A DNA stretch of 64,000 bases from the human T2T-CHM13v2.0 reference genome, Homo sapiens (GCF_009914755.1 NC_060929.1); one strand, 5' to 3'. Shown: positions 841-55,140, counted from the stretch's first letter. Numbers and translations are program-made. The notes: generated by a model not told the origin, from the letters alone.

Positions 841-1312
<472 letters not shown>

Positions 1313-1900
1313 TCACATCATTCGAGAAAAATCTTATTTCCTGCAAAATCAGAAATACTTCATCTGCAGTAGAAAATCATTTCAATGGGTTTGTGTTTAA
1401 GTTGGTACCATAAAATTAAACTTAGCTTAAACCTCACCTCCTCTGAGACTCTTCCTGATACCTCACTTCTGTTCTTAAATATCCCTTTTTAGTACCTGAT
1501 AGTGCCTATGCAAATCACCGAGTCACCTTTTTAATATTCTAACCTCCTGCGGTGTAGGCACCAGACTTTACTCAACTTTATATCCCCAATGTCTTTTACA
1601 GTGCTTGAATATAATCTGTGTGTAAAAAATACCTGCGAAGAATTAATCAGTTCAATGAATTTATGGCCAAATGACTGGCTTGATTGAAATGAAAGAAATC
1701 CAATTCGGTTCCTCTCAAAGGAAATCTCACAGCTGATATTATGATAATAAACAACCATTGTTTTTGTTCACATTAAGTAAACTAAATATTGGAGAAGTAA
1801 TTAAAACTCAAGAGGTGAGAATTCCGCCCCTAGATGTGAATATGAACAGATTTTGACAGTTTCCGCAGGAAAGCGCTGTACAGCCCAGGTTTTCAGTTCG

Positions 1901-1925
1901 GACGCCTGGTGGCACTACAGGCTAA
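1901..1925 (+). promoter_or_regulatory. Orphan CSE / putative CTCF site of relic 1
   Basis: GACGCCTGGTGGCACTACAGGCTAA, 23/25 identical to the PCDHB5 CSE and about 240 bp upstream of relic 1. Confidence 0.8.
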
Positions 1926-2148
1926 AAAGTAGGAGGAGGAGGAGCCCTGCATTTGCCTGCAGACTCCATCTTAGAAAAGACAAAATCTGAAAGGTGCTGG
2001 GAACAGATACGAGTTGGAAAACGTCCGCAGCGAGCTCAGATTTTAGAGCTTTCTTCAAACGAATGGGGACTACACAAATGTTTGGAAGTCTTACAGGACT
2101 TCCGAAGACTTCATTTACTAAAGGCAATGCACTCAGAGGATATACAGG

Positions 2149-3358
2149 AAATTGTGCGAGAAAAAAATCTGGCAGAAAACGCAGGTGGTGGGTTTTCATT
2201 TTCTTCCCGGGTGTAGCGCAGGCGGCCCAGGAAAAGGAAAACTGCTTTTTTATGGTCAGGGTTTCTGGAGATTGGCGCTGGCGGCGGAAAGGGGAGCGGC
2301 GGGAGGACAGACTGGAGCAGGATAGTTTCCAAAGAGACCAAATAATATTTCAGATCGACCCACAGAAGAGTCCTTGCTCTCAAGTAGAAAATCGGACCTA
2401 TAGGAGCCCTGCATTTCCAAGAATTACCTGTATTTAAAAAAAAAAAAAATTTGTCTTTTGAGAAAAATCTGTGTCTGAGGTGTAACCGTTTCCTCCTTTG
2501 AAAAATTCTTCTGAATGTTCCAGAATGTGCACCAGGAACATGTATGAGGTTTGGGTAAATTTTCCATCATTGGAAACTACACACTCATTTTCAATTTCCA
2601 TGTTCACAATAATGTGCTGTGCAATATTGGGGTAAGTAATTTGTCCATACGCGTGAAAAAAATCGCTGGATGAACCACAGCCCAAGGTAAGTTTAACTCT
2701 CCCAGAGAAGAATGGTAGATATCTGAGACCTCCTAAGTCCAAGTCATGACAATCAATGACAATCTTTGAGATGCAGGTCTCACAGCAACCGGCTGAAGAT
2801 TTAGTCTGAGTAAATAATTATGAATCGGCTCTCAGAATTCTCCAGGCTCACTGAATTCTGCAACCTCTGGAGAGCATTTTAAATGCTAGCAGAACATTTT
2901 AAATACCACTGATACCCCATGCATCATAAGCATCCACTGCAAGAGAATTACCAGGAAATTTCAGTGCCACGTGGCAAATACTCAGGCAATTACAAGCAGA
3001 AATAGTTTCAGAAATTGTTTCTTCATGTGAAGGACGGTGGAAGACCATGCCATTGGATGACAATCACATAGAATTGGTCATGTTGACACTTATCTGCCTC
3101 ATCCTGGAGCACTTCTGGGAAGACTTCATCTGTTTAAGAACCATAATCTCAGCACCCTGAGATAAAACAACAACAACAACAAAAACAAAACAAAACAAGA
3201 AAAAGCTTTGATCCTTCCTACCAGAGTTTTCTTTTCATTGGATATTTAAAATATTCCATAATCTGACAACCTAATAATGCAAACCAGAAAAGAGAGCTAC
3301 ACGCAACATCACTGTATTTCCAATGAAATTAGGTTCCAGGAAGCTCAAAACAAGACAG
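2149..3358 (+). pseudogene. Decayed protocadherin-beta relic 1 (signal peptide to EC4)
   Basis: Collinear peptides across frameshifts: QKTQVV (2173; cf QKRQV), FIFFPGVAQA, RIVSKETK (cf RVVSKGNK), KILLNVPECAPGT (2502; cf [14 protein letters not shown]), NYTLIFNFHVH (2575), SLDEPQPKVSLTL (2663), VQVMTINDN (2737), KDGG (3030), LDDNHIELVMLTLI (3053; cf [14 protein letters not shown]), NITVFPMKLGSRKLKT (3305; cf [16 protein letters not shown]). Confidence 0.85.
3164..3205. repeat. (CAA)n/(CAAAA)n simple repeat inside relic 1
   Basis: AAAACAACAACAACAACAAAAACAAAACAAAACAAG. Confidence 0.8.
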
Positions 3359-4512
3359 TAGGTAGAGACAGCTATCATCCTTGGCGTTCTTCCTTTTGGA
3401 TTCTGGATAAAAGGTAGAGGAATAACAGCACCGTTCTGAATGTTTTGGTTATTTTATGGCTCTAATTTCCATCGTGTTTTTTTTCTGAAGCATAGCTAAT
3501 TGTTCATTAACAGTTAACAGATATTGATGGCTTAGCTATTTTTATCTTTTTATCTATTTCACAAAGGTCTATTTAGAATCTAGTAGTGTATTTCCTCTTT
3601 ATTGTTAAGCACAGAAAAGGAACGCATTTTTTTCTGCTCATGCCTAGTTTCCTTTGATCTTTCTCAAAGGTAAATTACCCCTAAAACTTTGAGTAGACTG
3701 TCCTAGCAGATATTCTGAAGCTTGACAAGGAAATTCATCCCACTTCAATCCATAAAATGATAGTCTTCGTAACTTCTCAAAGAAGGTCAAGCTATTTATT
3801 TTAAAGTCATCTTTTGCTTTTCTTGATATTTCGTAAATGATGGCTGACAAGTTGTGATAGTCTACTTTTCAGCAGGACTGGTCTCCATTTACTTAGTTTA
3901 AGTAACTATTTACTTGATTACTATTATTAATATATGGTTTTAACTTTTTATTTGAAATAGTCATTTGATGATTTTGGTGATATTGATGACCACGAAATCA
4001 AATGGAGATATACAACTACAAGAAAAAAAACTGTAGAAATAAATGTCTTTTTCGTTATTTAAGACGTAAATCAACTGAGTTGCTGTGTAGCTTATTTATG
4101 TCAATGTTAAATTTGTGTTTGTTAATTTTTACTGTTTCCTTATTAAACATCAAAAATGATTAATTCTTTGGCAATTAATATCATAGCATATCCAGTACAT
4201 TAAATGTCATGTAAAACAGACCGACAAAACAATCTTATCTTTTTTTTCTTTATGTCAGTGTTTAATACTCTCCTGTATGGCTTAGGAAAATTAAAGAAGA
4301 TACAACAGAATATGCCTCAAATAAGACCTATTTGTTGATATTTAATATATTTATGATAGTTGCTGATAAAATGAAAACAGACATTATTCAATACACTGGA
4401 TAATAATTACATAAATACAAAGTGTTTGGTGTTTTCATTTGCCTTTCTCAAATACTTTTTTTCTTTCTAGAGAGTTTAATGCACTGACGGGGGGTGGGGG
4501 GCGGTCCTATAA

Positions 4513-4529
4513 TGGCACTGCAGGCTCAA
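4513..4529 (+). promoter_or_regulatory. Degenerate half-CSE upstream of relic 2
   Basis: TGGCACTGCAGGCTCAA matches the 3' half of the CSE (TGGCGCTGCAGGCTAAG); the 5' half is diverged. Confidence 0.55.
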
Positions 4530-4699
4530 ATGGTGGTTAAAGCAGATTGCAAATACAGTGCTGTATGTTTCATATTATATTACCCTGTCTGTGAAAGTTG
4601 TATTGGATGTCTAAGATTCTGGTGGCATAAGTAATAGAAACATTAGGGTGATCAGAGTTTGTGTAGGACCATATTTGCTGGAAGGTGTTAGAAGAAGGA

Positions 4700-6660
4700 A
4701 TAATGTAATACTTAAAGCCCAGTCTAAAACAAAGTGTGATTCTGTTTTACTAAGCATGTACCATTCAGGATACTGAACTGCAGAATTCTGTTCCAGAGGT
4801 GCTGGAGAGTGGTTCCTTCATTGCTAATTTTGCAGAGATTTTGGGCCTTAGGATGGGGAACTTGAGAGGTATGGGGAGCGAGAGGGTAATTCATGTTTCT
4901 ATAGATTTAAAAAACTGCATTTTCAAATCAAAAGACTCAGGAGTGGGTACTAAATAGAAATTGGATCCATCTGTGAGTCTCAAAGCACCTTGGAAAAATG
5001 TAACTCATTTGAGTTACTCATTTGCCTTGAGAAAGGTAACTTGGAAAAATGAGTTACATTTTTACAAGGTGCCTTGGACTCACAGATATAGCCATTCACT
5101 AGTGTGTATTACTGGATCTAGGAATGCTGCAAAAAATCAAGGAGAGCATCTTGTAGAGACCATATAGATGGCAGAACATGTAGACAGAGCAGTATTCATA
5201 AGTATATTTTGAATCCTAATTCCCATGTCTTCTCTTCTGTTTGCTTAGAGAATGGTGGCAGAAAATATCCTGAATGAGGATGGGCAATTTTCTCAGTGGA
5301 AAGAAATGGGTTGAGGTTAATTTAACTATCATGATATTGGATGGTGGGTCCCCACATAGATCCAAATCTGCATTGGTCTTCACCAAAGTTGTGGGTTATC
5401 AGTGATTTTACTCAGCTGTAATATATAGTAGTTCAGTACAGTAATCCCAGAAAAAAAGTTTTTCCTCCCTGGCTATCACTTTTCTATCAGGAATTTGGAT
5501 ACAAGGTATAATATAAAACTATCTTTAAGGTTTTACCGGGCTACTGAAGACTTAATGAAAACTTTAATAAAGCATTTACATTGGTATAAAAGTACCAAAA
5601 GCAAACCCATCACTCAAACCCGTAAATTCCAAGGCTATACTAATCTACAGTGTGGATTCTGAGATCATCAATAATTAAAGACTCTAGAAAATGTAACTTC
5701 TTGCTGTAAAAGACAGTCCACTCCTAATCATCATGTCATCATTTATGAACTAGGTCCCAAGGAGCCATATCTGCTTTAAGACCATATCTGCTGTTTCCTG
5801 TGTTTCAGATCCAGATCACAGAAAAAAAAATAGATATTTGGGCTTCATAATACCACCTTCCCTTCACCCTAAAGCCTTCAATAGAGGTAGATTAAAGACA
5901 AGTACAATTCTATGATTACTGCCAGAGATCTGGAGTTACTGTAAGCTGAAAGGAAACAATATAACCAGGTCTTCATTTTCACCAAACTGCCTCTGCACTT
6001 ATCAAGTATGAAAACACAGCCCTAGAGTGTGCATTTTAGCAGCACACTGCCATAAACAGAGACTTAGAAAAACACCCAAGTAACTTATTTGCTTCTGGTT
6101 TCCCAGGATGTGCAGTACTCCATGACAGTGGACACAAAGAATCTGTTTGTAAGGCCCATAAGAGTCAAGTTCTGTATGAGAGAAACAGACACTACTACTA
6201 CCATGAGCTAGCAGCATGGTGTTGGTGTGGTTGGTAATATTTGATGGCAATGGCAATTCTCCTTTGTGTTATATTTAATGCAGAACGGATTATGTGATGT
6301 TCAAGGTGGTGGCAGTAGAAGGAGACTAGGTCTGGAAGGTCTTCATGTCCTATCAGTTACTCAAAGACTTGAGTCTCCATCTGTATAGCGTGTTAGCCCA
6401 ACACTGGGAAGTGTGCACACTAGGTTTGTGAGTGATGGTAATCTAGCCAATCATAGACTTCAGGTTATGGTCAAGGACACTGAGATGCCACCTATGTATT
6501 CCAGATTCAGACAACAACTGCTGCTGGTCAGCTGTTTCTTTCAGCTCTACTGGCTACATCTTGACAGACCTCAGGAATATGGGGTCTGTCACTTAGATTC
6601 CTCACTTAGCATATACTATGGTTTTAGTATTCCTTTGTTTTCTTGTTGGCCTGCTTCTTT
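4700..6660 (+). pseudogene. Decayed protocadherin-beta relic 2 (EC1 to EC6/juxtamembrane)
   Basis: NSVPEVLESGSFIANFAEILGL (4784; cf [22 protein letters not shown]), KYILNPNSH (5200), GGRKYPE* (5254), LDGGSPHRSKSALV (5337), AVSCVSDPD (5790), LPFTLKPSIE, TQVTYLLL, IFDGNGNSP, KVVAVEGD*, SYQLLK, HRLQVMVKD (ORF 6413). Many stops and deletions; ends approximate. Confidence 0.92.
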
Positions 6661-6708: not shown

Positions 6709-7186
<478 letters not shown>

Positions 7187-7576
7187 CATATTTTCTTTTA
7201 AAGTAAAATTTCAATAGTGATCTTAGTGAAAATTCAATCATCTACCAGATTACCTAAACCTGATTTAAGTTTTAACCTATTTTAATCATAAAAAAAAGTC
7301 TGAGATTTTTGGAAGAGGTCATACCTCTGTCTCTCTCATCTCTATTTCCATCTATATCTGTCTATCTAGCTTTATCTGCAGTCCTGGTCAAGATTTTTAT
7401 TTTCAAGGGGACAGATTGTCCTAATAGACTCTGATGGTTCTCCTTAAACAAAATTGGGCAAGATTCTTGTGCAGGTATCATTTTAAAAACCTTTTCTTGC
7501 TTATTTGTACTGTGGGAAGAGAATAAACAACACCATTTCCCCTTTTTGAGTTATATTTATTTCTTGTTTCATTTGC

Positions 7577-22229: not shown

Positions 22230-22560
<331 letters not shown>

Positions 22561-23179
22561 AAATATGTGAATCTTTAATAGTCAGAGGAAAATTAATATA
22601 ATATTTCCTTTCACTTTAAGTACTTTATAGAGATGTTTGAATCTGGCTGTTTTGGTCAGATATTTTTCTTCTTTGCATACGTAGCTGATTTTCCATGAAT
22701 ATCAGGAAAAGGCATAGAATTCTGATCAAGATTTCTCTCTCTTTGATTACCTTAGTCCCAGGTGGTATCAGAGCCAGGGAAGTACTCAACTGTGGAAAAT
22801 ATAGAGGGCAGTTCTTTTGGGGACTAATATGGTATATGATCGGAGACTAAAGTTCAAAAGGCAATATGCTGAGTCATTTAGACACTGAAGATAGAAGAAC
22901 AGATACCATTTGTAATTTAGTTTTTAGATGTACTGGACTTATACATTGTTGAGAAAATGAATAGAATTTAGCAAAGCCAGAAAAGATAATCTATACTAAA
23001 TTTGAAGGTGGGAAACAATCACATCTTACTCTTGGTTCAAAGCTGCTTCTCTTTCAGGGCAGTTAGAAACCTTTTACCCTTTTATTTGAAGACAACTTCC
23101 AAAAACATATTCATCTGGATATTTCATTAAATACAGAACAGAGAGAGTACCACATGTACAGTACTAACTAGTGTTGCCA

Positions 23180-23510
23180 CGTTTTGGAATTCCACGAACT
23201 AAATGCCTGGCACAAGGTAAAAGGGTTATTAATAATTTTCTAGTAATTTTTCTTCTAGGCAGGCTAATTCATTATTGTAAAATATTTACAAATCGATCTC
23301 ACCAGTATTCCAATTATCAAAAAGTAAGAGAAGGAAAAATTTTACTCCCTTCCCTCATTCTAGAATATATAAAATGACCTTACTAGACTCTAAACAACTT
23401 GAAGGTAGAGTCTGTTTCTGGTTTATTCACAGTGGTATTTCCAGCAAATAGCACAATGCCTCATTCATAGTAGACACTCAGTTTATATTTGTTAAATAAA
23501 TAAATTTTAA
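23180..23510. mobile_element. L2-like 3' end fragments inside relic 3
   Basis: ATGCCTGGCACAAGGTA and AGCACAATGCCT..ATAGTAGACACTCAGTTTATATTTGTTAAATAAAT resemble L2 tails. Confidence 0.5.
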
Positions 23511-24987
23511 ATTATTTGGGAAATAAAATAATGCTGTAAGGACTTACAAACTTGTTTATTTGGACCTGATCTACACATTGAATTTTAAAAGAACTATCTG
23601 TATTCAGAAAGGGGTGGAGTATGAAGAATAATTCCCTATAGAGGCAATTTTTTATTTAATGTCTCCCTTTGCATCTTGAGACTTGTGGAAACTTGGAGAA
23701 CTGTAAAATTATGTATTAATCTCCAAGTTGGTTCCAAATTGAGCTTATTTATATCTTTGATTTCAGGGACAAAGAAGAAATTAAATATAAGACTTTTTTG
23801 TACATCAAATTAACTTTCTGAAATTGGTATTTAAATTCTCTGGCCTCTAATTGGTACTTCTGTTGAACTTGGGTTAGTCTTAATGATATCAAGATTAAAT
23901 AAAATTTGCAAGATCCCAAAGGCTTAAAAATTTTTTTAATAGCCAATCATTCATTTATTTTCAAAACATAATTCTCGATCACGTGCACACTCCTTTCTTC
24001 TCTCTACAAATACATTAGTTCAGAAATAACTTAAATATTTCCTTGACATTCACAATCTAGTTTTTAGCACTGAAAATCAAAGGGATACAAATGAATTTTA
24101 AATTTTTATTTGGGGAGTTGTTATAAGACTAAGCTATATTCAAATATCAATCATTAAAACTAGTGAGGCCACTCACTATACCACCATACTTTTCATAAAT
24201 CTCCTTTGATGAATAAATTCTACTTCCTTACAAAAGAAGACTCTGTTTAAAAAAGGTACCAACTTTTCTATATATCCCCCTACTTTATTCTGGAAATGTC
24301 TTTTGCTTCTTAAAGTAATTGTTAGATTTTTTAAGCCAGAAATCTGTTAGTCCTAATTATGAATTATTTTAATGTCAAATATGCATATGGTTAATCAATA
24401 GTTTTCTTTATCATAGATTCAAAATTTTAAGCTTATTTTCCTTCCATTCTTTAGGCATTCAACACGTTGATGAAAAGTACAATGTCAGTCTACTTCTCAT
24501 TCTTTTATCCGTAAACTTCTTTACTCTCTTTTAGATTCTTAAATTTATTCTTGCTGTTCTGATATATATGGTAGGCCCCAACCTGAGATTCACATAACGT
24601 ACTGCATTTTTTTCTTTGAGAAATTACAATTTTCTTTTGAAAACTTTCATTTGGCAAGTTTTCACAACTATTTGTTCTTGTTTCAAAATTGCTATTTCCT
24701 TCTTTGTTGTTTGAGTCTTTTACGTTTAAGTTCTTGCCATATTGTTTCGAATTTCAATTTCTTATAGTAGATAAAACAATTCTTTTATTTGTTGAGTCTC
24801 TTTTTCATGGTGTCAATCTTCATTTGCTTGGTGATATTTTACTGAGAACTTATCTCTTATTGGAAGCTTCTTTCACAGTAGTACTTGTTTTGACAATCCT
24901 GGGGAAGGGAAGAAGGAGAAGAGGGGTCTCAAGGTGGTTTCAGCCCTGGCCTCTGCAAACCCAAGCCTTAATTTAAAAGCTTAGCTC

Positions 24988-25441
<454 letters not shown>

Positions 25442-25805
25442 TCAGGGAATGTCACTGCTTCTTGGTTGTCACGGTTTCTGCTAAGGCTATAGACATGGAA
25501 GCTAATGGAGAAATTTAAAATGTTTCAATCTTCAGAGTAAATAAGTTGATTTTTAGGAAAAGTGAACTGTAACTGAAGCAATTGACACATGGGGACTATG
25601 TGGAAAACATCATGGTCTGGATTCAAGTTACAGCATTCATGGTAATGCTCAGAAAGATAATAACATACTCCAAGATTCCACTGAAATAGTGGTTGCTATT
25701 TTTTTTTTTAGAAAATAGCTTGGGACTCTGGTGATAATGCAAAATGGGCTTGCTCCTTCCAAGACAATCTCCTCATGAAACCATTTGTCAAAAATTAGTG
25801 TTCTG

Positions 25806-26090
25806 GGACTGGGCACAGTGGCTCATGCCTTTAATCCCAGCACTTAGGGAGGCCGAGACAGGAGGATTGCTTGAGCCCAGGAGTTCAACAACAGCCTGGG
25901 AAACATAGTGAGACTCTGTCTCTACAAAAAATTTTAAAAATTGACTGGGTGTGGTGGCATGCACCTGAGGTCCTAGCTACTGAAAAGGGTGAGGTGGGAG
26001 GATCCTCGAGCCCAGGAAGTTGAGGCTGCAGCAAGCCATGATCATGCTGTAGCCTGGGTAATACAGCCAGACTCTATCTCAAAAAATAAA
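25806..26090 (+). mobile_element. AluJ inserted in relic 3 (EC4)
   Basis: Diverged Alu interrupting KPFVKN..|..ILVTEK. Confidence 0.9.
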
Positions 26091-27806
26091 ATTATTTTGG
26101 TAACAGAGAAGTCAGGGCTCTGCACCATCTCTTACTAGGGTGGAATCTAACATGCAGAAATATAGCACAACATAATCACACTGTTCTTCAACACTGTCAA
26201 CAATTCCCTGACCCAAACCTCATGTACCTTATTAATTCACAATAAAAAGAAAGTCCTACTCAGAATGATGATAGTATCACTGCCAAAAACAGAGACTATC
26301 TAGGGACTAATACCTAAGTCACTTTCCCACAGCTGCCCAAAGACGTATTCCTCAGCCCTCTCTTGGTATCCATCTGCATGGACAATGGAACCTGTGTGCT
26401 TTGATGTCCCTGGTTTTTGAGATTCTTGAAGAGTTTGAGTTCTAAATGTGTCTGGAGCTTTCTGGAGTTGAGCATCAAGATGTGCAGATCCTGGATGACA
26501 CACAGCTATAATAGCTAGATAACAAAGAAAATTTATTATAAAGCAATTCTATATTGTGTACTGAGCTGTCCAGGTAGAAAAAAAGTGGTAACCCAGTGAT
26601 GACTTGGGCTAGAACTCATGACTATTTTATTGGTGATTCGAGGCCTCAGAGCCCTGGATGTTAGCATGTGGGCCCACAGCCTGGAAGTACAGAGTATGTG
26701 AAGCACATCTAGGCTTCTAAAAGACAACCACAACCAGGCATAAGCTGGTGCTGTTATTAAGGACAAGTGGAAGCCACCTTTATTTGCCATGATCATCCTA
26801 CACCTGGTCTAGGACTTACCCCAGTCTTCTCTTCCATTCCTTTAACCACCCATAAAAGGATTTCCATTTTCTTGATCACTGATTTGACTCAGTCTTCTTT
26901 CTCTTTCAATTCTCTCTGTTCCTGTGCTACTCAGATGTGGAGGGTCAACTGGGAAACTTCAGTGCATTGCTGCTCAAAAGAAAGACTCTTCCTGAGCATT
27001 TTGGGAGTATCAACACCACTGGGATTTAGTTCTAGAGCTTTCAGTGTGAGAAGTTTCTGGAATATCAGAAACAAATATCAAATTTCTGAAGCCAATTGTC
27101 TCTAATTAATGTGAGCTATCTATGAGGAAAGACTTTTAAAAGAAATTTAATTTCTAGAACAATGTGAGATTTATTTTTTAAAAATTGTATTCTCTAAATT
27201 GTATCTTTCTGAGGTTTTTTGTTTAAATTTATCTCTGAGGAAATGAATTTCTTCATCCCAAATGTTTCAATTCTATTTAATTTAAAGTAGGTAACTGGCA
27301 GTGTTGAAGTTTCATTGTCTATGTTTGTTATTACAAAAAAGGGTATTGTATATTTTACTGCAATTTTAAAAAAGAATATATTCTGAGCATCAGTGAAAAT
27401 GGTAGAGAATGGACCTCTGAAAAATCTCTTCTCCAGGAAAGCACTGAGGAAAATGAGAAAAATTTTCAAAATCTACTGCTTCAGAACTCTGAAATTTAAA
27501 CAAAGATGTACAGCAACTTAGGGAAAATTTATTGAGGGAAAAAGGTCTGACTCTTGGTTAAAAATAGTGGTTTTTGTGGCATTTTAACTGGCCTATTTCC
27601 ATCTCCATCTCTCTAGCTTCTTAGTAGCCTTTAAAGTTAACAATTTACAATCACAATGAAAATTAGCAGCTTGGCAGCCACCAGAGGAAACAGAACAGCA
27701 CCACAAAGAATTGTCATTATTTGATCTGTTTGGTGGTTCCCTGGAGGACTCCACTTGCAAGGCTGTCTTTAATTGCCTGAATTAGAGCTTGTCTAGTACA
27801 AAAAGT

Positions 27807-52500: not shown

Positions 52501-52526
52501 GACGCCTGGTGGCGCTGCAGGCTAAG
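52501..52526 (+). promoter_or_regulatory. PCDHB5 promoter CSE (CTCF site)
   Basis: GACGCCTGGTGGCGCTGCAGGCTAAG; core 243 bp before the ATG. Confidence 0.88.

Positions 52527-52749: not shown

Positions 52750-55140
<2,391 letters not shown>

What the first reader, a model, noticed from the sequence alone, without database searches (positions are those of the whole stretch)
1820..2400. Orphan CSE/CTCF promoter element preserved in front of a dead protocadherin
Seen: GACGCCTGGTGGCACTACAGGCTAA (1901-1925) differs from the PCDHB5 CSE at only 2 of 25 bases. It has the same orientation and the same ~240-bp spacing to a gene start, yet the downstream coding sequence is wrecked. CpGs also survive nearby (1825-2310, e.g. 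GGCGCTGGCGGCGG, GAGCGGCGGG), unlike the AT-rich flanks. Established: CSEs of clustered Pcdh promoters bind CTCF/cohesin and loop to distal enhancers during stochastic promoter choice. Inference: the element outlived its gene and may act as a decoy promoter, a loop anchor or insulator, or a non-coding RNA promoter at the start of the beta array. Caveat: the CGCT core is changed to CACT.
Basis: partly seen in the sequence, partly recalled or inferred. Interest (0 to 1): 0.8.

Follow-up and report, generated by a model that had tools for sequence, protein, structure and literature searches.

The report
Dead protocadherin promoter still a CpG island

Summary
Window 1901-1925 differs from the PCDHB5 CSE at 2 of 25 bases, on the same strand. 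It lies about 245 bp upstream of the position aligned to the paralogues' ATG; live genes have 239-272 bp.

A PCDHB profile aligns 1747-3121 as promoter plus about 1.1 kb of destroyed coding sequence (E 4.5e-31). This "relic A" is sister to PCDHB2 on a long branch. It is not unique:
- Relic B (4504-6557) has its own decayed CSE.
- Relic C lies at 22733-27106.
- A bare CSE remnant lies at 65774-65865.

The CSE is the best-kept 25-mer of relic A, but the excess over the relic's general decay is only borderline (P 0.04-0.12). Its one change at a family-invariant column destroys the CGCT-box CpG. All 3 orphan CSEs lost that CpG; 0 of 17 gene-linked CSEs did.

The real anomaly is CpG content. Region 1854-2321 meets classical CpG-island criteria. 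The 581-bp patch has 23 CpGs, against 9-25 in live PCDHB promoters and 3 in relic B. It is the top intergenic, non-Alu window in 214 kb of the beta cluster.

Best reading: the dead gene's promoter has stayed unmethylated in the germ line, as an orphan CpG island. CTCF binding is untested.

The parts
1747..3121 (+). Relic A: a decayed PCDHB variable exon with its promoter, sister to PCDHB2. It may extend to about 3358.
   Evidence: nhmmer with a PCDHB2-5 profile gives E 4.5e-31, profile positions 52-1548. The 15-gene profile gives 1885-3119, E 2.3e-29. A weak tblastn hit reaches 3358. In the tree it pairs with PCDHB2 (support 0.875), with branch 0.60 against 0.17.
1901..1925 (+). CSE-derived element (GACGCCTGGTGGCACTACAGGCTAA), forward orientation, with the CGCT box changed to CACT.
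   Evidence: It has 2 of 25 mismatches to the PCDHB5 CSE. A CSE-only profile built from 4 live genes scores 1896-1952 at 20.5 bits. The 11 live genes not used for the profile score 12.9-30.0 bits. G to A at 1914 is the only mismatch at the 12 columns invariant in 15 live genes. The second change, at 1917, is also present in live PCDHB14 and PCDHB6.
1854..2321 (.). CpG-island-like core around and downstream of the old transcription start. The wider patch is 1820-2400.
   Evidence: GC 0.50, observed/expected 0.72, 20 CpGs over 468 bp. The 581-bp patch has 23 CpGs. It is the top of 1395 intergenic non-Alu windows in the window (median 2) and of 3654 across 214 kb (median 2, 99th percentile 13).
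2145..2148 (+). Position aligned with the paralogues' start codon. It no longer reads ATG.
   Evidence: nhmmer and MAFFT alignments.
2063..2437 (+). 124-codon open frame across the CpG patch. From about 2193 it follows the ancestral signal-peptide/EC1 frame.
   Evidence: No Pfam family at E up to 1. An ORF this long arose in 7 of 1000 local and 19 of 1000 relic-wide dinucleotide shuffles.
4504..6557 (+). Relic B: a second dead PCDHB exon with its own decayed CSE at 4504-4528 (GTCCTATAATGGCACTGCAGGCTCA). It serves as an internal neutral control.
   Evidence: nhmmer E 6.4e-59 for 4781-6557. The CSE profile hits 4513-4558 at E 0.0027. The CSE matches 12 of 18 invariant columns, equal to the relic's overall 0.665. 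The body has CpG observed/expected 0.07, and the promoter-equivalent window has 3 CpGs.

Best explanation
Window 1747-3121 is the remains of an ancient PCDHB variable-exon gene, a tandem sister of PCDHB2. The 25-mer at 1901-1925 is that gene's CSE, the forward-oriented CTCF-type promoter element of clustered protocadherins.

The coding body has decayed like neutral DNA. The CSE itself shows no clear extra constraint. It has lost the CpG of the CGCT box, as the other orphan CSEs of the cluster have.

The roughly 580 bp around and just downstream of the old transcription start (1820-2400) has kept, or keeps regenerating, the CpG density of a live PCDHB promoter. The most likely mechanism is inferred, not shown:
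- The region has stayed free of germ-line DNA methylation because it is still occupied as a promoter-type element, by transcription factors and the start-site chromatin that excludes de novo methylation.
- That would make it an orphan CpG island left by a dead gene.
- Its sequence drifts at the neutral rate, but CpGs are not lost and new ones persist.
- The CACT variant of the CSE may still bind CTCF weakly in the forward orientation, and could then act as an extra upstream anchor. That step is untested.
For: **It is a relic with its promoter.**
- nhmmer E 4.5e-31.
- CSE to ATG spacing of about 245 bp against 239-272 bp in live genes.
- The tree places it with PCDHB2 on a long branch.

**The CpG content matches a live promoter.**
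- 23 CpGs (observed/expected 0.71) in 1820-2400.
- The equivalent window of the 14 live genes tabulated (all but PCDHB6) has 9-25 CpGs; the two annotated pseudogenes have 17 and 18. Relic B has 3.
- Region 1854-2321 meets the criteria GC at least 0.5, observed/expected at least 0.6 and length at least 200 bp.
- The patch is the single top locus among 3654 intergenic non-Alu windows over 214 kb. Only one other locus reaches 10 CpGs.
- Relics B and C have observed/expected 0.07.

**Drift is neutral, but the substitution spectrum differs.**
- Match at paralogue-invariant columns is 112 of 146 in the patch against 231 of 314 in the rest of relic A (P 0.49).
- Strong-to-weak versus weak-to-strong changes are 13:17 in the patch and 235:58 in relic B (Fisher 3e-5).
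- Changes that created a CpG persist at 4 of 75 ancestral A/T sites in the patch, against 2 of 184 and 1 of 493 elsewhere.

**Position fits a promoter.** Annotated starts of PCDHB2-5 lie 0-67 bp past the CSE (hub table). The patch therefore spans roughly -150 to +450 of the predicted start.
Against: - No methylation, chromatin, transcription or binding data could be consulted, and no other species could be compared. Germ-line hypomethylation is inferred from sequence alone.
- Ancestral CpGs were mostly lost. Only 1 of 10 CpGs shared by at least 3 of 4 paralogues is kept. The region was therefore not protected throughout its history, or the paralogues are a poor guide to its own ancestral CpGs.
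- The CSE's CGCT-box CpG decayed to CA, as expected of methylated, unconstrained DNA. The same CpG was lost in all 3 orphan CSEs and in 0 of 17 gene-linked ones.
- Non-CpG weak-to-strong changes are also mildly raised in the patch (0.173 against 0.141 and 0.116). GC-biased gene conversion would produce that too.
- RefSeq annotates no gene or functional element here (hub table).
- The Wu-laboratory papers, read only as keyword-matched passages, describe one CBS per beta promoter except beta1 and name no site here.
Confidence: 0.5

Rival explanations
1. This is a neutral leftover with no present function. The CSE is simply the most recognisable part of a decaying relic. The CpG patch is a by-product of GC-biased gene conversion at a recombination hotspot, of GGC-type slippage, or of chance.
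For: - The CSE excess over the relic background is weak (P 0.118; 0.036-0.106).
- The CGCT-box CpG is lost, as in the two other orphan CSEs.
- Overall divergence of the patch equals the rest of the relic.
- Most CpGs are not ancestral.
- Five CpGs sit in one GGCGG-rich 30-bp stretch at 2274-2303.
- Non-CpG weak-to-strong changes are mildly raised.
Against: - The patch is the unique maximum of 3654 intergenic windows in 214 kb.
- It sits exactly over the old promoter and start site rather than at a random place.
- It matches live promoters in CpG count.
- The excess of persisting CpG-creating changes (4 of 75 against 3 of 677 elsewhere) points to reduced CpG loss rather than a general GC drive.
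Confidence: 0.3
2. The CSE is a selectively maintained, occupied CTCF/cohesin site. It works as the 5'-most forward loop anchor, insulator or decoy promoter of the beta array.
For: - It has forward orientation like all live CSEs, and the same 3-mismatch fit as PCDHB5 to a CTCF core consensus that I recalled from memory.
- The G to A change falls on a position that this consensus writes as R.
- The profile score of 20.5 bits lies within the range of live CSEs.
- It is the first CSE-like element after PCDHB1, and beta1 lacks a CBS (PMC7811963 passages).
- The CpG at motif position 2-3 is kept (1903). Motif-strand methylation at C2 is reported as the dominant inhibitor of binding (PMC10325916 passages).
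- It sits at the edge of a CpG-island-like patch.
Against: - G of the CGCT box is invariant in 17 of 17 gene-linked CSEs despite being a hypermutable CpG. That argues it matters, and it is lost here.
- The statistical excess of conservation is borderline and post hoc.
- The CpG patch is centred about 290 bp downstream of the motif, not on it.
- Three mismatches to the recalled consensus also occur about 29 times by chance in the window.
- Passages of four papers describing the cluster's CBS layout name no site here.
Confidence: 0.2
3. The CpG island belongs to a different, unannotated unit that reuses the relic's DNA. It could be a non-coding RNA start site, an enhancer, or the 124-codon open frame. 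The CSE would then be irrelevant to it.
For: - The island core (2010-2300) lies downstream of the CSE.
- A 124-codon ORF spans 2063-2437 and is longer than in 993 of 1000 local shuffles.
Against: - The ORF has no Pfam family.
- No Rfam family matches in 1200-4970 at E up to 1.
- RefSeq annotates nothing here (hub table).
- The geometry fits the old promoter without a second element.
Confidence: 0.12

Closest known systems
CSE / promoter CTCF-binding site of live clustered protocadherin genes (nearest in sequence: PCDHB5; nearest gene by tree: PCDHB2)
   Same: - Same strand, and the same distance to the start codon position.
- 23 of 25 bases identical to PCDHB5.
- The profile score is within the live range.
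- It is followed by a CpG-rich 5' region, as in live genes.
   Different: - The CGCT box reads CACT.
- The variable exon behind it is destroyed.
- CTCF binding is not shown.
Protocadherin 'relics' (r) and pseudogenes drawn in maps of the three human clusters (figure legend in PMC7766791; the original papers of 1999/2001 were not held and are only recalled)
   Same: It is a heavily decayed variable-exon remnant inside the cluster. Relics B and C and the remnant at 65.8 kb are further examples.
   Different: - I could not check whether this particular relic is among those catalogued, or whether its CSE was noted.
- Unlike relics B and C, it keeps a CpG-island-like 5' end.
Orphan CpG islands (CpG islands away from annotated promoters; the concept is recalled, not read here)
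   Same: It meets classical island criteria, no gene is annotated, and it has promoter-like geometry.
   Different: - It is small, with GC only 0.50.
- Its origin from a dead paralogue's promoter is evident.
- Its methylation state is unknown.
PCDHB17P and PCDHB18P, annotated beta pseudogenes
   Same: These are dead or dying beta genes that keep a CSE and a CpG-rich 5' end.
   Different: - They are young: nearly full-length profile scores of about 2400-2550 bits against 96 bits here.
- They keep the CGCT box, so their state needs no special explanation.

Membership tests
Pcdh conserved sequence element (CSE, promoter CTCF site) | Lies at a fixed distance upstream of the variable exon's start codon, on the same strand. 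| tested here: met
   About 245 bp, against 239-272 bp in 15 live PCDHB genes.
Pcdh conserved sequence element (CSE, promoter CTCF site) | Sequence matches the family profile. | tested here: met
   A CSE profile built from PCDHB2-5 scores it at 20.5 bits (E 2.7e-5 in the window). The 11 live genes outside the training set score 12.9-30.0 bits.
Pcdh conserved sequence element (CSE, promoter CTCF site) | Highly conserved CGCT box (PMC7811963 and PMC6881428 passages). | tested here: not met
   It reads CACT. The CpG is present in 17 of 17 gene-linked beta CSEs (PCDHB6 reads CGGT) and absent in all 3 orphan ones.
Pcdh conserved sequence element (CSE, promoter CTCF site) | Binds CTCF/cohesin and supports promoter activity. 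| not testable with these tools
   No binding or expression data were available.
CTCF core motif | Fits the 15-base core consensus (recalled from memory: CCASYAGRKGGCRSY). | tested here: inconclusive
   It has 3 mismatches on the + strand, identical in number to the live PCDHB5 CSE. Matches at this level number 53 in the window against about 29 expected by chance.
CpG island (classical criteria: length at least 200 bp, GC at least 0.5, observed/expected at least 0.6) | Composition criteria. | tested here: met
   1854-2321: 468 bp, GC 0.50, observed/expected 0.72, 20 CpGs.
CpG island (classical criteria: length at least 200 bp, GC at least 0.5, observed/expected at least 0.6) | Unmethylated in germ line and early embryo. 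| not testable with these tools
   This is inferred only from CpG density and the substitution spectrum.
Functional PCDHB gene | Intact single-exon reading frame of about 795 codons with cadherin domains. | tested here: not met
   The start codon is lost, there are many gaps and frame changes, and only about the first 1.1 kb is recognisable. No Cadherin_2 match, against 3e-36 for PCDHB5.

The most novel reading that the evidence does not exclude
A beta-protocadherin gene that died before the mammalian radiation left behind a promoter that is still kept unmethylated and occupied. With beta1 lacking a CTCF site, this relic would supply the 5'-most forward CTCF anchor and decoy promoter of the beta/gamma loop domain. 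Loss of the CGCT-box CpG would make part of its methylation gating obsolete, so it would behave as a more constitutive stop for cohesin than the stochastic live promoters.
Probability: 0.15. Interest if true: 0.65.

Novelty: new member of a known kind. Interest (0 to 1): 0.4.

Why it matters
Models of protocadherin promoter choice count the forward CTCF sites that cohesin meets between the downstream super-enhancer and the 5' end of the beta array. Passages of the Wu-laboratory papers consulted here describe one site per beta promoter except beta1.

An occupied relic promoter 10 kb upstream of PCDHB2 would add an uncounted site at the edge of the beta/gamma domain.

Independently of CTCF, this would be a clear case of a promoter-type CpG island outliving its coding sequence by a very long time. 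It would bear on where orphan CpG islands come from.

If public methylation and ChIP tracks show nothing here, the locus is just one more protocadherin relic.

Tried and rejected
- **Recent gene conversion from PCDHB5.** Rejected. The identity tract is only about 29 bp. Of the seven variable CSE columns, relic A matches the PCDHB2-5 majority state at five, and only two (1906-1907, CT) are specifically PCDHB5-like, so the CSE is close to the family consensus. In the coding part relic A is closest to PCDHB2 and farthest from PCDHB5.\n- **Relics A and B as duplicates sharing an ancestral CACT.** Rejected. They are 49% identical, less than either is to live genes, and shared derived states are at chance level (33 observed against 27.6 expected).\n- **The patch as foreign DNA or a repeat.** Not supported. 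The profile alignment runs collinearly through it and it is not masked (hub table). The 5'UTR-equivalent part does align poorly.\n- **The 5' part being younger or constrained in sequence.** Not supported.\n- **An RNA family here.** None in 1200-4970.\n- **A REST site in the patch.** None, using a recalled consensus.\n- **Literature.** Ten full-text searches found no description of a CTCF site, CpG island or transcript at a relic between PCDHB1 and PCDHB2.\n- **Papers that could not be read.** Wu et al. 2001, Wu 2005, Guo et al. 2015 and Monahan et al. 2012 are not held.

Full report
**The observation**

The 25-mer GACGCCTGGTGGCACTACAGGCTAA is at 1901-1925 on the + strand. Allowing 3 mismatches, its only other match in the window is the PCDHB5 CSE at 52501-52525, with 2 mismatches. 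No shuffle gave any match.

A looser core pattern finds five sites: 1907, 4510, and the PCDHB2, PCDHB4 and PCDHB5 promoters.

**What lies behind the motif**

A DNA profile was built from PCDHB2-5, from -450 to the stop codon. It aligns 1747-3121 to profile positions 52-1548, which is promoter plus about the first 1.1 kb of coding sequence (E 4.5e-31).

- The alignment is full of gaps.
- The base triplet aligned with the paralogues' ATG (about 2145-2148) is no longer ATG.
- Protein-level matches are weak and lie in three frames.
- The distance from CSE start to that position is about 245 bp, against 239-272 bp in the 15 live beta genes.

**It is not alone**

- The same profile finds relic B at 4781-6557 (E 6.4e-59).
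- It finds relic C in pieces at 22733-27106.
- A CSE-only profile made from the four live genes finds exactly two further sites in the window: relic A (1896-1952, 20.5 bits) and relic B (4513-4558, 14.2 bits).
- For relic C the expected CSE place falls in a masked repeat, and no CSE is detected.

**The whole beta cluster**

The window's own assembly could be searched. I fetched 40 kb upstream and 110 kb downstream and scanned the whole beta cluster.

- Nothing protocadherin-like lies between PCDHB1 and relic A.
- Relic A's is therefore the first CSE-like element of the array.
- PCDHB1 aligns only from profile position 367 on, with no CSE. This agrees with statements that beta1 has no CBS (PMC7811963, PMC6881428, PMC10703910 and PMC7087399; passages read).
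- A third orphan CSE remnant without any gene body lies at 65774-65865, outside the window.

**Is the CSE preserved beyond neutral decay?**

It is the best-kept 25-base window of relic A, at 23 of 25 to the best paralogue. The next best elsewhere reaches 21 of 25, and the mean is 13.1.

Living paralogues also hardly vary there, so the fair comparison uses only columns that are invariant among them.

| Column set | CSE match | Rest of relic A | P |
|---|---|---|---|
| Invariant in PCDHB2-5 | 16 of 18 | 332 of 448 | 0.118 |
| Invariant in all 15 live genes | 11 of 12 | 170 of 237 | 0.106 |
| Same base in at least 14 of 15 | 14 of 15 | 228 of 316 | 0.051 |
| Same base in at least 13 of 15 | 17 of 19 | 286 of 416 | 0.036 |

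- This is borderline at best, and the window was chosen after the fact.
- Relic B's CSE matches 12 of 18, exactly its body's rate of 0.665.
- Promoter against coding part of relic A gives 41 of 49 against 307 of 417 (P 0.16).

**The CGCT box**

The single mismatch at the 12 fully invariant columns is G to A at 1914, which turns the CGCT box into CACT.

- That CpG is present in all 15 live beta CSEs and in PCDHB17P and PCDHB18P. PCDHB6 reads CGGT.
- It is lost in relic A (CA), relic B (CA) and the 65.8-kb remnant (TG).
- Three of 3 against 0 of 17 gives a Fisher probability of about 9e-4. This is my own arithmetic, not a tool result.
- Relics A and B are not sisters, so the two CACT changes arose in parallel.

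Against a CTCF core consensus that I recalled from memory, relic A and PCDHB5 both have 3 mismatches on the + strand. The G to A change falls on a position written R.

The CpG at core positions 2-3 (1903) is kept. PMC10325916 (passages) reports that motif-strand methylation at C2 dominates inhibition of CTCF binding. Binding by the CACT form therefore remains possible, but it is untested.

**The real anomaly is CpG content**

- Region 1820-2400 has 23 CpGs, with observed/expected 0.71. The flanks give 0.36-0.38, and the bodies of relics B and C give 0.07.
- Region 1854-2321 satisfies the classical island criteria.
- In the window defined as CSE -81 to +499, the 14 live genes tabulated (all but PCDHB6) have 9-25 CpGs and the two annotated pseudogenes 17 and 18. 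Relic A has 23 and relic B has 3.
- Among intergenic, non-Alu 581-bp windows the patch is the maximum, both of 1395 windows in the 64-kb window (median 2, 95th percentile 7) and of 3654 windows over 214 kb (median 2, 99th percentile 13).
- Only one other locus in the 214 kb reaches 10 CpGs.

**How the patch evolves**

- Its overall divergence equals that of the rest of the relic (112 of 146 against 231 of 314, P 0.49). It is neither younger nor constrained base by base.
- Ancestral CpGs were mostly lost, and only 7 of 31 present CpGs align with a paralogue CpG.
- The substitution spectrum differs. Strong-to-weak versus weak-to-strong changes are 13:17 in the patch, 36:28 in the rest of relic A and 235:58 in relic B. 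Patch against relic B gives P 3e-5.
- CpG-creating changes persist far more often in the patch: 4 of 75 ancestral A/T sites, against 2 of 184 and 1 of 493.
- This is what an unmethylated stretch drifting neutrally would show. A contribution from GC-biased conversion cannot be excluded.

**Age**

- Relic A pairs with PCDHB2 (support 0.875), but its branch is 0.60 substitutions per site against 0.17. Relic B's branch is 0.65.
- Match at invariant columns is about 0.72-0.75.
- I infer that the gene died long ago, probably before the radiation of placental mammals. This is not shown, and alignment error inflates the branch lengths.
- At that age a methylated stretch should look like relics B and C.

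**Explanation**

The annotated starts of PCDHB2-5 lie 0-67 bp past the CSE, so the patch covers roughly -150 to +450 of the predicted start.

The simplest account is that the dead gene's promoter has remained a promoter-type, germ-line-unmethylated island. The CSE at its edge is no longer held to the family's standard.

Rivals are:
- A functionless patch made by biased conversion.
- An unrelated unit reusing the DNA. A 124-codon frame at 2063-2437 is unusually long (7 of 1000 shuffles) but has no family match.

**What is known**

Relics and pseudogenes in all three clusters are drawn in published maps (PMC7766791, figure legend).

I could not read the original catalogue, so I cannot say whether this relic or its CSE is already listed. 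None of ten full-text searches found a description of a CTCF site, island or transcript here.

**Verdict**

This is a real and correctly described element. The motif itself is ordinary decay of a known kind. The island over the dead promoter is a modest but genuine oddity, and public epigenomic tracks would settle it within minutes.

Noticed in passing
window 4504-6557: Relic B is a second dead PCDHB exon 2.6 kb downstream of relic A. It has its own decayed CSE (CACT core, and the 5' CpG also gone) and is fully CpG-depleted.
   Followed up: yes
window 22733-27106: Relic C lies between PCDHB3 and PCDHB4, in four profile-matching pieces separated by repeats. No CSE is detectable, and the expected position lies in the masked repeat 22240-22567.
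   Followed up: partly
L006:1774-1865 (window coordinates 65774-65865, outside the window): A bare CSE-block remnant lies about 1.5 kb upstream of the PCDHB6 CSE, with no gene body behind it. Both CSE CpGs have changed to TG, and the surroundings are CpG-poor.
   Followed up: partly
window 2063-2437 +: A 124-codon ATG-started open frame spans the CpG patch. From about 2193 it keeps the ancestral signal-peptide/EC1 frame. It has no Pfam match and is longer than in 993 of 1000 local shuffles.
   Followed up: partly
window 13875, 19728, 41074, 54510; relic B 6302: A conserved exonic 15-mer, CAAGGTGGTGGCGGT, has 3 mismatches to the recalled CTCF core consensus. It is present in PCDHB2-5. The PCDHB5 copy lies inside the RefSeq 'enhancer' 54222-54755. 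In relic B it is one of the best-kept blocks, again with CpG changed to CA.
   Followed up: no
window 13532, 19385, 40731, 54167: Perfect matches to a recalled REST/NRSE consensus (TCAGCGCCACAGACAG) occur at the same coding position of PCDHB2-5.
   Followed up: no
window 4971-5085: A near-perfect long hairpin lies inside relic B, with weak sub-threshold matches to microRNA families (mir-7883, MIR7533). It looks like a small palindromic transposon insertion.
   Followed up: no
window 6926-6985: A sub-threshold mir-3135 match (46.9 bits against a gathering score of 80) lies inside the repeat-masked stretch 6872-7215.
   Followed up: no
L005, window coordinates about -5860 to -5280: This is the only other intergenic non-Alu locus in 214 kb with 10 or more CpGs per 581 bp (12 CpGs). 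It lies about 1.2 kb from the annotated 5' end of PCDHB1-AS1.
   Followed up: no
L006 (PCDHB6 CSE, about 67314-67338) and L013 (PCDHB14 CSE, 140578-140602), window coordinates: Live PCDHB6 has CGGT instead of the CGCT box. PCDHB14 and PCDHB6 carry the same CTACA variant as relic A. Five live genes (B8, B9, B10, B11, B14) lack the 5' CpG of the CSE.
   Followed up: partly
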